From Escherichia coli (lineage in GTDB: Bacteria > Pseudomonadota > Gammaproteobacteria > Enterobacterales > Enterobacteriaceae), in the NCBI RefSeq assembly GCF_003334255.1, contig NZ_QOWU01000077.1: a DNA stretch of 16,761 nucleotides; one strand, written 5' to 3'. The notes below the pieces were generated by a model. That model had not been told where the DNA came from. It worked only from the letters and a program-made list of their open reading frames with translations, and made no database searches. The translations under genes were made by a program, and so were the position numbers. The stretch's first letter is position 1; each line of letters starts with the position of its first letter. Positions 5,617 to 8,856 of this stretch are shown piece after piece.

Positions 5617-6615
5617 ATGAAACTTTTTCGTATCCTCGATCCTTTCACCTTAACCCTGATCACGGTGGTGTTGCTGGCCTCTTTCTTTCCGGCCAGAGGC
5701 GATTTCGTCCCCTTCTTTGAAAATCTGACCACCGCAGCTATTGCCCTGCTGTTCTTTATGCACGGCGCGAAGTTGTCGCGTGAGGCGATTATTGCTGGCG
5801 ATGGTCACTGGCGACTGCATTTGTGGGTAATGTGCAGCACCTTCGTGCTGTTTCCGATTCTGGGTGTACTGTTTGCCTGGTGGAAACCGGTAAATGTCGA
5901 CCCGATGCTCTACTCCGGTTTTCTCTACTTGTGCATTCTCCCGGCTACCGTGCAGTCTGCAATCGCCTTCACGTCAATGGCGGGCGGTAACGTCGCGGCA
6001 GCGGTTTGTTCTGCGTCGGCATCCAGCCTGCTGGGGATTTTCCTTTCACCATTGCTGGTTGGTCTGGTGATGAATGTTCACGGTGCAGGGGGCAGCCTTG
6101 AGCAGGTCGGTAAAATTATGCTGCAACTGCTGCTGCCGTTTGTGTTGGGGCATCTTTCCCGGCCGTGGATTGGTGACTGGGTGTCGCGCAATAAAAAATG
6201 GATTGCGAAAACTGACCAGACGTCCATTCTGTTGGTGGTTTATACAGCGTTCAGCGAAGCCGTCGTTAATGGTATCTGGCATAAAGTTGGCTGGGGATCA
6301 TTGCTGTTTATCGTGGTGGTCAGCTGCGTTCTTCTGGCTATCGTGATTGTAGTTAACGTCTTTATGGCACGCCGACTGAGCTTCAATAAGGCAGATGAAA
6401 TTACTATCGTCTTTTGTGGTTCGAAAAAGAGTCTGGCAAATGGCATCCCGATGGCAAACATTCTGTTCCCCACATCGGTGATCGGTATGATGGTGCTGCC
6501 CCTGATGATTTTCCATCAGATCCAATTGATGGTCTGTGCGGTGCTGGCGCGTCGATACAAACGCCAGACCGAACAGTTACAGGCGCAGCAGGAAAGCAGC
6601 GCCGATAAAGCTTAA
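5617..6615 (+). CDS. yfeH: Bile acid:sodium symporter (BASS) family membrane transporter YfeH, 332 aa
   Basis: 332-aa highly hydrophobic ORF recognised as YfeH; divergent from yfeR. Confidence 0.88.
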   Translation: MKLFRILDPFTLTLITVVLLASFFPARGDFVPFFENLTTAAIALLFFMHGAKLSREAIIAGDGHWRLHLWVMCSTFVLFPILGVLFAWWKPVNVDPMLYSGFLYLCILPATVQSAIAFTSMAGGNVAAAVCSASASSLLGIFLSPLLVGLVMNVHGAGGSLEQVGKIMLQLLLPFVLGHLSRPWIGDWVSRNKKWIAKTDQTSILLVVYTAFSEAVVNGIWHKVGWGSLLFIVVVSCVLLAIVIVVNVFMARRLSFNKADEITIVFCGSKKSLANGIPMANILFPTSVIGMMVLPLMIFHQIQLMVCAVLARRYKRQTEQLQAQQESSADKA

Positions 6616-6830
6616 AGCGGACGCTTCAGGGGCTGGACCAGTTGCGTCAGCCCCTCGGTTTTAATCAGCAGCGTGATTTGCATTAGCTCACCGAGCTTCC
6701 CTGCCGGGAACTCATCTTTGCGGGCAAACCACAGCAGATACTCCTCCGGCAGGTCGATTAAGCGACGCCCTTTGTATTTGCCAAACGGCATTATCGTATT
6801 GGCTATTTCAATCAGCTGCTCTTTTTCCAT
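6612..6830 (-). CDS. ypeB: Small conserved protein YpeB (DUF3820-like), 72 aa
   Basis: Track ORF 6612..6923 (103 aa); start placed at the internal ATG (MEKEQLIEIANTIMPFGKYKGRRLIDLPEEYLLWFARKDEF...) 1 nt downstream of the ligA stop codon, which gives the known 72-aa product; the longer form would overlap the ligA 3' end. Confidence 0.75.
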   Translation of the reverse strand: MEKEQLIEIANTIMPFGKYKGRRLIDLPEEYLLWFARKDEFPAGKLGELMQITLLIKTEGLTQLVQPLKRPL

Positions 6831-6831
6831 C

Positions 6832-8856
<2,025 letters not shown>

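What the first reader, a model, noticed from the sequence alone, without database searches (positions are those of the whole stretch)
6612..6834. Tight gene packing around ypeB: stop-codon overlap with convergent yfeH and a 1-nt gap after ligA
The yfeH stop codon (TAA at 6613..6615) and the complement of the ypeB stop codon (6612..6614) share the palindrome TTAA, so two convergent genes overlap by 2 nt with no room for a terminator between them. At the other end the ypeB ATG (6828..6830) lies 1 nt after the ligA TGA (6832..6834), implying translational coupling of ypeB to ligA. Convergent transcription into one another could produce antisense interference between yfeH and ligA-ypeB.
Basis: seen in the sequence. 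Interest (0 to 1): 0.2.

Follow-up and report, generated by a model that had tools for sequence, protein, structure and literature searches.

The report
Tightly packed yfeH–ypeB–ligA gene junctions
Two ordinary kinds of tight gene packing in E. coli: ypeB starts one base after the DNA ligase gene, and its stop codon interlocks with that of the oncoming yfeH gene, whose likely transcription stop signal sits inside ypeB's own coding sequence.

Summary
The window is E. coli MG1655 2521330-2538090. yfeH (5617-6615, +) and ypeB (6612-6830, -) share TTAA: the stop triplets share 2 nt, and the annotated CDSs overlap by 4 nt. The ypeB ATG lies 1 nt after the ligA TGA.

Both features belong to well-described classes:
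- 4-nt convergent stop/stop tetramers (YTAR);
- same-strand gaps of -8 to +6 nt, which are compatible with termination-reinitiation coupling.

The pair yfeH-ypeB is already listed as a convergent "excludon".

Comparison of 80 Enterobacterales species added these points:
- The ligA-ypeB gap is 0-1 nt in 67/80.
- The 4-nt overlap is present in 57/73, with all four legal tetramers.
- "No room for a terminator" is true only literally. The last codons of ypeB read on the yfeH strand as an 8-bp GC hairpin plus UUUU (6628-6665).
- The five codons that build this element have essentially no synonymous variation in 57 species. All 52 other codon columns vary.
- Species that keep a 30-165-nt spacer with a canonical terminator lack the element (0/9, against 53/57).

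Published data place a Rho-dependent termination region on the + strand about 800 nt downstream, so some antisense transcription across ypeB/ligA occurs. Coupling and regulatory interference remain untested. The finding is ordinary and of low interest.

The parts
5617..6615 (+). yfeH CDS (332 aa; annotated as bile acid:sodium symporter family protein / putative solute:Na+ symporter), stop TAA at 6613-6615
   Evidence: ORF list; RefSeq annotation.
6612..6830 (-). ypeB CDS (72 aa, DUF3820 / Pfam PF12843), ATG at 6830-6828, stop TAA at 6614-6612
   Evidence: Pfam E = 4.4e-29 with full-length model coverage. The start is conserved and the upstream frame is closed in most species.
6832..8847 (-). 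ligA CDS (671 aa, NAD-dependent DNA ligase), stop TGA at 6834-6832
   Evidence: NCBIfam NF005932, E = 8e-300; RefSeq annotation.
6612..6615 (.). TTAA stop/stop tetramer shared by convergent yfeH and ypeB (4-nt CDS overlap; the stop triplets share 6613-6614)
   Evidence: Kept in 57/73 species as TTAA, TTAG, CTAA or CTAG. A known class (PMC2174442).
6828..6834 (-). ligA-ypeB junction TGAgATG (1-nt gap); proposed termination-reinitiation site
   Evidence: The gap is 1 nt in 58/80 species, 0 nt in 9/80 and an 8-nt overlap in 5/80.
6838..6841 (-). Weak Shine-Dalgarno-like GGGU inside the last ligA codons (Leu-Gly), 7 nt upstream of the ypeB ATG
   Evidence: Duplex with the 16S 3' end is -3.8 kcal/mol, against -5.4 for ligA and -5.9 for yfeH. 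ATG-start species average -5.4 and GTG-start species -7.2.
6628..6655 (+). Hairpin AGGGGCUG-(12 nt)-CAGCCCCU on the yfeH-sense strand. It is encoded by ypeB codons 59-61 (E G L) and 66-68 (Q P L). Candidate intrinsic terminator stem for yfeH, starting 12 nt after the yfeH stop.
   Evidence: Fold energy -15.9 kcal/mol. Codons G60 GGG, L61 CTG, Q66 CAG and P67 CCC are invariant at synonymous sites in 57 species. 94% of cells are paired, with a few compensatory changes.
6659..6665 (+). U-tract UUUUAAU following the hairpin; complement of ypeB codons I56-K57-T58
   Evidence: K57 is AAA in 55/56 species, whereas the other Lys codons mix AAA and AAG. Hairpin plus TTTT is present in 53/57 overlap species and 0/9 spacer species.
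6816..7422 (+). C-rich, G-poor stretch (6816-7015) followed by a published Rho-dependent termination region (about 7422) on the strand antisense to ligA; backup termination of yfeH-sense read-through
   Evidence: C/G ratio is 1.8-2.1 at 6816-7015. PMC7815308 Supplementary file 2: position 2528751 (+), reads upstream/downstream 55/6 untreated and 113/83 with bicyclomycin, Rho score 6.7, p = 1e-6. Coordinate offset.

Best explanation
This is a compact but conventional piece of E. coli operon architecture.

(a) ligA and ypeB form one transcription unit, because a 1-nt gap leaves no room for a promoter or terminator (inferred). A ribosome finishing LigA at UGA most likely reinitiates at the AUG two bases further on. 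This gives YpeB synthesis without a strong Shine-Dalgarno of its own (inferred).

(b) The ypeB and yfeH stops interlock in a Y-T-A-R tetramer. This is a derived state of core Enterobacteriaceae. It replaced an ancestral spacer of about 30-70 nt that held a bidirectional intrinsic terminator. Outgroups show the spacer state; the direction of change is inferred by parsimony.

(c) The yfeH terminator function moved into the last 17 codons of ypeB. Read on the yfeH strand, these codons form an 8-bp GC-rich hairpin followed by UUUU. Selection on this nucleic-acid element is shown by complete synonymous-site invariance of the stem and U-tract codons. That it terminates transcription is inferred.

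(d) Termination there is incomplete. Residual yfeH-sense transcription runs antisense through ypeB into the 3' part of ligA and is stopped by Rho about 800 nt downstream (published genome-wide data).

(e) The ligA-ypeB mRNA has no recognisable conserved intrinsic terminator. It must end inside antisense yfeH, probably by Rho or by polymerase collision (inferred). The two transcription units therefore necessarily overlap.
For: Anatomy and annotation.

Conserved junctions in 80 species: ligA-ypeB gap of 0-1 nt in 67/80; 4-nt overlap in 57/73, with all four legal tetramers.

Weak SD in E. coli (-3.8 kcal/mol), and an inverse relation between start-codon quality and SD strength.

Distance range for termination-reinitiation: PMC10666635.

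Embedded element:
- Hairpin of -15.9 kcal/mol plus UUUU.
- Synonymous heterozygosity of K57, G60, L61, Q66 and P67 is 0-0.035, against >=0.10 (mean 0.44) for all 52 other degenerate codon columns. Mann-Whitney p = 1.3e-4. GGG and CCC are held although other Gly and Pro codons in the same gene vary freely.
- Compensatory double changes: G-C to A-U in two Raoultella species and C-G to U-A in L032.
- Complementary distribution: element present in 53/57 overlap loci and 0/9 spacer loci, and all 9 spacer loci carry a canonical intergenic terminator hairpin.
- The two other convergent pairs in this window have 38- and 42-nt spacers with canonical hairpins.

Read-through and Rho: PMC7815308 Supplementary file 2 and a rut-like C-rich stretch.

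Transcript overlap: yfeH-ypeB is listed as a convergent excludon (PMC12288877). In that study 146/165 such E. coli pairs have terminators embedded in the neighbour's unit.

In-CDS terminators for overlapping convergent genes are known in general (PMC2174442).
Against: - No mapped RNA 3' end at the proposed terminator. The curated Term-seq lists of PMC7815308 hold no 3' end between MG1655 2527400 and 2528299. yfeH may simply be too weakly expressed.
- The hairpin is not thermodynamically exceptional for its GC-rich context (z = -0.8, 35/200 shuffles fold as well). The tool's terminator scan did not call it.
- The U-tract is short (4 U) and starts 4 nt after the stem.
- The Rho region downstream shows that + strand transcription passes the hairpin, or starts at an unmapped antisense promoter.
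- The 57 species are phylogenetically related, so the 53/57 versus 0/9 contrast may reflect few independent events.
- Translational coupling and co-transcription were not tested. A sigma-54 binding site inside ligA, 343 nt upstream of ypeB, could in principle give ypeB its own transcript.
Confidence: 0.6

Rival explanations
1. Functional excludon. Because the units overlap, induction of yfeH sends RNA polymerase and antisense RNA into ypeB and ligA. This lowers LigA/YpeB expression, and the reverse also holds, through collisions or RNase III cleavage of the duplex. The packing would then be a regulatory device.
For: - The pair is listed among 165 convergent excludons from RNA-seq coverage (PMC12288877).
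- + strand RNA antisense to ypeB/ligA is limited by Rho.
- Head-on polymerase collisions at stem-loops terminate convergent E. coli pairs in vitro (bioRxiv 10.1101/2022.10.23.513370).
Against: - No reciprocal expression data exist for this pair.
- Read counts on the antisense strand are low (55 reads per 800 nt).
- A terminator-like element under selection sits right after yfeH. This argues that read-through is being limited rather than exploited.
- ligA is essential, from general knowledge, so strong interference would be costly.
Confidence: 0.15
2. The conserved hairpin serves the ligA-ypeB mRNA rather than yfeH. It could act as a 3'-proximal stabiliser against exonucleases, a ribosome pause site near the ypeB stop, or a DNA-level protein-binding palindrome. 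The U-tract on the other strand would then be incidental.
For: - The stem is self-complementary, so it forms in both transcripts.
- The minus-strand RNA downstream of ypeB folds unusually well (z = -3.6).
- Rho-terminated transcripts are known to be trimmed back to stable hairpins (stated in PMC7815308).
Against: - The hairpin lies upstream of the ypeB stop codon. An mRNA trimmed back to it would lack a stop.
- K57 is fixed as AAA in 55/56 species. This matters only for a U-tract on the yfeH strand.
- The element is absent exactly where an intergenic terminator is present.
- It is also degraded in L052, where yfeH is not the neighbour.
Confidence: 0.12
3. ypeB is translated independently of ligA, from its own ribosome binding or from its own transcript started inside ligA. 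The 1-nt gap would then be neutral compaction from deletion bias, with no coupling function.
For: - Species with a GTG start have a strong GGAG SD encoded by the last LigA codons (mean -7.2 kcal/mol).
- A sigma-54 ChIP-seq site lies 343 nt upstream of ypeB inside ligA (PMC4591121).
- Distant DUF3820 homologues are not next to ligA, so there is no deep functional tie.
Against: - The E. coli SD is weak (-3.8 kcal/mol).
- The 0-1-nt spacing is held in 67/80 species across several families, although the stop and start codons themselves change.
- Spacing in this range gives efficient reinitiation in tested E. coli pairs.
Confidence: 0.25

Closest known systems
4-nt convergent stop/stop overlaps (CTAA, TTAA, CTAG, TTAG) in prokaryotic genomes (Lillo & Krakauer 2007, PMC2174442)
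   Same: Two convergent CDSs share a Y-T-A-R tetramer. This locus shows all four variants across species. The paper also notes that terminators of such genes must lie in the partner's coding sequence, and finds predicted ones for 21 of 58 E. coli overlaps.
   Different: Nothing essential. Here the embedded terminator is backed by synonymous-site invariance and by outgroups that still have the spacer. That survey did not examine either point.
Translational coupling by termination-reinitiation at overlaps or very short gaps (Huber et al. 2023, PMC10666635)
   Same: Same-strand genes with a +1-nt distance, within the -8 to +6 window that holds 24% of E. coli same-strand pairs. The downstream SD is weak.
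   Different: The commonest configurations are ATGA (-4) and TGATG/TAATG (-1); this one is TGAnATG (+1). Coupling has not been measured for ligA-ypeB. That paper links short overlaps to subunits of heteromeric complexes, and no LigA-YpeB complex is known.
Convergent excludons (ExcludonFinder, PMC12288877)
   Same: yfeH-ypeB is explicitly listed. Short or absent intergenic distance and a terminator embedded in the neighbour's unit are typical (146/165 pairs).
   Different: Mutually exclusive expression, RNase III processing and dsRNA evidence were not shown for this particular pair in the text I could read.
Canonical bidirectional intrinsic terminators between convergent genes, such as crr/pdxK and yfeN/yfeR in this window
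   Same: A GC-rich hairpin at the junction of two convergent units. Outgroup species (Pantoea, Rahnella, Hafnia psychrotolerans) have exactly this between ypeB and yfeH.
   Different: In E. coli the hairpin is inside the ypeB ORF and upstream of the ypeB stop. It has a U-tract on one side only, so it can serve yfeH but not ypeB. It is also weaker (-15.9 kcal/mol, z = -0.8, against -20 to -24 kcal/mol and z about -4.2 to -4.6).

Membership tests
4-nt convergent stop/stop overlap (YTAR tetramer class) | Two convergent protein-coding genes whose in-frame stop codons share the central TA of a C/T-T-A-A/G tetramer | tested here: met
   TTAA at 6612-6615. Both CDSs are annotated in RefSeq. 57/73 species keep the overlap as TTAA, TTAG, CTAA or CTAG.
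Translationally coupled gene pair (termination-reinitiation) | Same-strand genes separated by an overlap or a very short distance (about -8 to +6 nt) | tested here: met
   +1 nt (TGAgATG) at 6828-6834. The distance is 0-1 nt in 67/80 species. Range taken from PMC10666635.
Translationally coupled gene pair (termination-reinitiation) | Both genes lie on one mRNA | not testable with these tools
   Inferred from the 1-nt gap. No transcript map for ligA-ypeB was retrievable. A sigma-54 site inside ligA leaves a second transcript possible.
Translationally coupled gene pair (termination-reinitiation) | Translation of the downstream gene depends on translation of the upstream gene reaching its stop | not testable with these tools
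   Needs reporter fusions with premature ligA stops. The only indirect evidence is the weak SD of -3.8 kcal/mol.
Intrinsic (Rho-independent) terminator, for yfeH | GC-rich stem-loop shortly downstream of the stop codon | tested here: met
   8-bp stem at 6628-6635/6648-6655, -15.9 kcal/mol, starting 12 nt after the yfeH stop.
Intrinsic (Rho-independent) terminator, for yfeH | U-rich tract immediately after the stem | tested here: inconclusive
   After the stem comes CGG, then UUUUAAU (6659-6665): 4 consecutive U, and 5 U in the 8-nt window that starts 2 nt after the stem. The consensus scan did not call the site because the loop exceeds 8 nt. The K57 AAA codon that supplies the U-run is fixed in 55/56 species.
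Intrinsic (Rho-independent) terminator, for yfeH | RNA 3' ends map to the U-tract | tested here: inconclusive
   No curated Term-seq 3' end in MG1655 2527400-2528299 in PMC7815308. The supplements of other 3'-end datasets are not held. yfeH expression may be too low for detection.
Bidirectional intrinsic terminator serving both convergent genes | Hairpin lies downstream of both stop codons and is flanked by an A-tract and a U-tract, so it terminates both directions | tested here: not met
   The hairpin lies upstream of the ypeB stop, inside its ORF. On the ypeB-sense strand it is followed by GAAGCGUCCGCUUUAAG with no adjacent U-tract. The yfeH tail holds no reciprocal conserved element.
Convergent excludon | Transcripts of two convergent neighbours overlap | tested here: met
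   Overlap is unavoidable given the 4-nt CDS overlap. The pair is listed in the MG1655 excludome, defined as presence in >=50% of 58 transcriptomes (PMC12288877). A + strand Rho region lies antisense to ligA.
Convergent excludon | Overlap causes reciprocal (mutually exclusive) expression or RNase III processing | not tested
   No pair-specific data were found, and the supplementary tables are not held.
Rho-dependent termination of yfeH-sense read-through | Bicyclomycin-sensitive drop in coverage downstream of a C-rich, G-poor untranslated stretch | tested here: met
   PMC7815308 Supplementary file 2: 2528751 (+), Rho score 6.7, p = 1e-6. This position is window 7422. The C/G ratio is about 2 at 6816-7015. 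The origin of the RNA (yfeH read-through or an antisense promoter) is not resolved.
Pfam PF12843 (QSregVF_b / DUF3820), for YpeB | Significant full-length match to the family HMM | tested here: met
   E = 4.4e-29, residues 3-68 matched to model positions 2-66 of 66. There are 894 family representatives, mostly stand-alone proteins of 70-130 aa.

The most novel reading that the evidence does not exclude
The packing could be a working regulatory switch. The YfeR-controlled yfeH promoter would send polymerases through a deliberately leaky, coding-embedded terminator into ypeB and the 3' part of the essential ligA gene. Solute or osmotic signals would then tune LigA/YpeB output by collision or antisense RNA. 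On this reading the YpeB residues Thr58 and Gln66 were fixed to build the neighbour's terminator, not for YpeB function.
Probability: 0.1. Interest if true: 0.5.

Novelty: already known. Interest (0 to 1): 0.2.

Why it matters
The practical value is mainly in annotation and genome engineering.
- Recoding or deleting the 3' end of ypeB would also remove what is probably the yfeH terminator, and antisense transcription into the essential ligA gene would increase.
- Synonymous changes in ypeB codons 57-67 cannot be assumed to be neutral.
- The locus is a clean, phylogenetically traceable example of a general phenomenon. When an intergenic bidirectional terminator is lost, its function can be taken over by the coding sequence of the convergent neighbour, and this constrains codon choice and probably amino-acid choice.

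The finding does not open a new question. Both kinds of junction and the excludon status of the pair are already documented.

Tried and rejected
- **Consensus promoter/terminator scan of 5400-9200.** It found no promoter-like sites, and terminator-like hits were at background level (7 against 5.1 expected). It missed the 6628-6665 element because of its loop limit.
- **Rfam gathering scan of the whole window.** Only the two tRNAs at 1-152 matched. Nothing lies at the junctions.
- **Published 3' ends.** PMC7815308 has none near the junction. PMC12207403 does not mention these genes. No supplements are held for PMC12288877, PMC11092163, PMC6061677, PMC9023263 or PMC8848933. Lesnik 2001 is not held.
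- **A reciprocal embedded terminator for ligA-ypeB in the last 60 codons of yfeH.** There is no cluster of invariant synonymous sites, and the YfeH tail is variable even at the protein level. Rejected.
- **The hairpin as a bidirectional terminator.** Rejected, because it lies upstream of the ypeB stop and has no U-tract on that strand.
- **A longer ypeB (103 aa from GTG 6923).** Rejected on comparative grounds.
- **Deep functional linkage of DUF3820 to ligA.** Four distant homologues (47-61% identity) have unrelated neighbours, so the linkage is specific to Enterobacterales.
- **YpeB function.** There is no solved homologue by sequence; the best PDB hit has E = 0.035 and is taken as chance. 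The only weak matches are to C-terminal regions of DnaQ-like exonuclease models and to a PHROG of unknown function. No literature on DUF3820 function was found. The close-homologue search returned only near-identical proteins. I did not run structure prediction because it would not bear on the packing question.
- One sequence (L058:4211-4265) used wrong coordinates and is disregarded.
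Full report
**Identity of the window**

The 801 bases around the finding occur at >=95% identity in all 5426 complete E. coli genomes searched. The window corresponds to MG1655 2521330-2538090. It differs from MG1655 by one base across yfeH-ypeB-ligA, so published K-12 data apply directly with an offset of 2521329.

The gene order is lysV, xapR, xapB, xapA, yfeN, yfeR, yfeH(+), ypeB(-), ligA(-), zipA(-), cysZ, cysK, ptsH, ptsI, crr, pdxK, yfeK, yfeS.

**Check of the observation**

- The yfeH stop TAA is at 6613-6615, and the ypeB stop is read from 6614 to 6612. 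The two triplets share 6613-6614.
- The annotated CDSs overlap by four bases, TTAA at 6612-6615.
- The ypeB ATG (6830-6828) follows the ligA TGA (6834-6832) after the single base 6831.

Only the phrase "overlap by 2 nt" needs the qualification that the gene overlap is 4 nt.

The ypeB start is sound on two grounds:
- The 72-aa product matches Pfam PF12843 end to end (E = 4.4e-29).
- The longer ORF from GTG 6923, which some gene callers report as 103 aa, is closed by in-frame stops within eight codons in 58 of 80 species. In 49 of 80 there is no alternative upstream start at all.

**How common these junctions are**

Both junction types are standard.
- Lillo & Krakauer (PMC2174442) describe CTAA, TTAA, CTAG and TTAG as the four tetramers that let two convergent genes end on each other. 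They count 58 convergent overlaps in E. coli. They note that terminators of such genes must then lie in the partner's coding sequence, and find predicted ones for 21 overlaps.
- Huber et al. (PMC10666635) show that 707 of 2,987 same-strand E. coli pairs lie at -8 to +6 nt. They also show that termination-reinitiation falls off steeply with distance.
- The pair yfeH-ypeB is already listed among the 165 convergent excludons of MG1655 (PMC12288877).

Within this window the other two convergent pairs are conventional. yfeN/yfeR has a 38-nt spacer and crr/pdxK a 42-nt spacer, each with a strong hairpin (z = -4.2 and -4.6).

**Comparative anatomy**

A scan of one genome per species returned 80 Enterobacterales loci.

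The ligA-ypeB distance is 1 nt in 58, 0 nt in 9, an 8-nt overlap in 5, and 2-5 nt in 4. Only Morganella, two Hafnia species and Photorhabdus have larger distances.

The start codon is ATG in 44 loci and GTG in 36.
- GTG starts are preceded by a strong GGAG encoded by the last LigA codons (mean duplex energy -7.2 kcal/mol).
- ATG starts have weaker sites (mean -5.4 kcal/mol; E. coli -3.8 kcal/mol). The difference has p = 4e-8 and is not corrected for phylogeny.

This pattern fits a downstream cistron whose initiation relies on ribosomes delivered by LigA translation. That inference has not been measured.

Distant DUF3820 homologues (47-61% identity) are not next to ligA. The linkage is therefore specific to Enterobacterales and does not argue for an obligate LigA-YpeB complex.

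**The convergent junction**

Of 73 loci with yfeH downstream, 57 keep the 4-nt overlap, and all four legal tetramers occur.

Nine loci have spacers of 30-165 nt: Pantoea, Rahnella, Hafnia psychrotolerans and relatives. Each of these spacers contains a canonical A-tract/hairpin/U-tract terminator of -18 to -32 kcal/mol. By parsimony, the spacer with a bidirectional terminator is ancestral and the overlap is derived in core Enterobacteriaceae.

**An element embedded in ypeB**

In the overlap species the YpeB tail is ...IKTEGLTQLVQPLKRP(L). On the yfeH-sense strand this reads AGGGGCUG-loop-CAGCCCCU followed by CGGUUUUAAU (window 6628-6665). The element starts 12 nt after the yfeH stop and folds at -15.9 kcal/mol.

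The synonymous sites of these codons are frozen across 57 species:

| ypeB codon | Codon used | Count |
|---|---|---|
| K57 | AAA | 55/56 |
| G60 | GGG | 57/57 |
| L61 | CTG | 57/57 |
| Q66 | CAG | 52/52 |
| P67 | CCC | 57/57 |

Each of the other 52 degenerate codon columns of the gene has a synonymous heterozygosity of at least 0.10, with a mean of 0.44 (Mann-Whitney p = 1.3e-4). Other Gly, Pro, Leu and Lys codons in the same gene vary freely.

On an alignment of 60 sequences, 94% of cells in the 9-pair helix are paired. The few changes include compensatory ones: G-C to A-U in two Raoultella species and C-G to U-A in L032.

The element (at least 7 of 8 pairs plus TTTT) is distributed as follows:
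- 53/57 overlap loci;
- 3/7 loci with 2-10-nt gaps;
- 1/7 loci without yfeH;
- 0/9 spacer loci, where YpeB reads IKIEGLEGLVKPLKR.

Erwinia shows a variant. The YpeB tail is extended by RGHQAP, which is encoded by a CGGGGCC-UGAU-GGCCCCG hairpin (z = -4.8).

I conclude that a nucleic-acid element is under selection inside the 3' end of ypeB. The fixed AAA codon points to the yfeH strand, because it supplies a U-run only there. On the ypeB strand the hairpin lies upstream of the stop and has no U-tract.

**Caveats on the terminator reading**

- The hairpin is not thermodynamically unusual for its composition (z = -0.8).
- The U-tract is short and offset from the stem.
- The tool's consensus scan did not call the site.
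- No Term-seq 3' end is listed there in PMC7815308.
- The species are related, so the number of independent events is unknown.

**What happens beyond the hairpin**

PMC7815308 Supplementary file 2 lists a Rho termination region at 2528751 (+), antisense to ligA, which is window 7422. [quoted passage not shown] The Rho score is 6.7 and p = 1e-6.

The + strand between 6816 and 7015 is C-rich and G-poor, with a C/G ratio of about 2, as expected of a Rho loading region.

Some + strand transcription therefore crosses ypeB and enters ligA in antisense, where Rho stops it. The data do not resolve whether this RNA comes from yfeH read-through or from an antisense promoter.

For the ligA-ypeB transcript I found no conserved intrinsic terminator in the last 60 codons of yfeH. 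The minus-strand RNA there does fold well (z = -3.6). Its 3' end is unknown. Rho-dependent termination, or collision-assisted termination of the kind shown for convergent E. coli pairs (bioRxiv 10.1101/2022.10.23.513370), are the candidates.

**Verdict**

- Coupling is likely but untested.
- Transcript overlap is real and already catalogued.
- The absence of a spacer does not mean the absence of a terminator.
- Antisense interference is unproven.

The locus is an instructive example of known phenomena, not a new kind of system. I rate its interest at 0.2.

Noticed in passing
window 7177-7193 (-): A sigma-54 ChIP-seq binding site (TTGGCATTGTCGTTGCA, site IS30 of PMC4591121) lies inside the ligA coding sequence, 343 nt upstream of ypeB. 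It could in principle drive a ypeB-specific transcript.
   Followed up: partly
window about 8487 (-) = MG1655 2529816: PMC7815308 Supplementary file 2 lists a Rho termination region on the sense strand inside ligA, about 360 nt from its start (Rho score 2.5). This suggests some premature termination or polarity within the essential ligase gene.
   Followed up: no
window 6612-6923 (-): Several public annotations call ypeB as 87-105 aa by starting at upstream GTG/ATG codons that overlap ligA in another frame. Comparative data show these extensions are not conserved.
   Followed up: yes
L067, L072, L079 (Erwinia), around 4190-4245 (-): In Erwinia the YpeB C-terminus is extended by RGHQAP. This extension is encoded by a strong hairpin CGGGGCC-TGAT-GGCCCCG followed by TTTC on the yfeH-sense strand (z = -4.8). 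It looks like an intergenic terminator that was absorbed into the ORF, a second route to a coding-embedded terminator.
   Followed up: partly
ligA-ypeB junctions of L002-L081: Start-codon quality and Shine-Dalgarno strength trade off across species. ATG starts come with weak SDs; GTG starts come with GGAG encoded by the terminal Gly-Glu codons of LigA. The LigA C-terminal residues therefore co-vary with the ypeB ribosome-binding site.
   Followed up: partly
window 6615-6830 (-), YpeB residues 10-42: YpeB matches the C-terminal part of two NCBIfam 'DNA polymerase III subunit epsilon' (DnaQ-like exonuclease) models at E = 7e-7 and 5e-6, well below their cut-offs. It also has a faint Pfam hit to ExoX-like_C. 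This hints that DUF3820 is a module also found fused to DEDDh exonucleases.
   Followed up: no
protein P0123: One DUF3820 family representative is 630 aa long with nine matched stretches, so it appears to be a tandem array of the domain.
   Followed up: no
window 15015-15056 and 4563-4600: The other two convergent pairs in the window have spacers with textbook hairpins: crr/pdxK (AAAAATGGCGCC-CATC-GGCGCCATTTTTTT, whose T-run abuts the pdxK stop) and yfeN/yfeR (ACTGCCGGG-GCT-CCCGGCAGT). I used them as local controls.
   Followed up: yes
window 1-155 (+): Two tRNA genes lie at the window start. Rfam finds a 5'-truncated tRNA at 1-72 and a complete one at 80-152. ARAGORN calls only tRNA-Lys (UUU) at 80-155. 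The MG1655 feature table fetched for this range listed no RNA genes.
   Followed up: no
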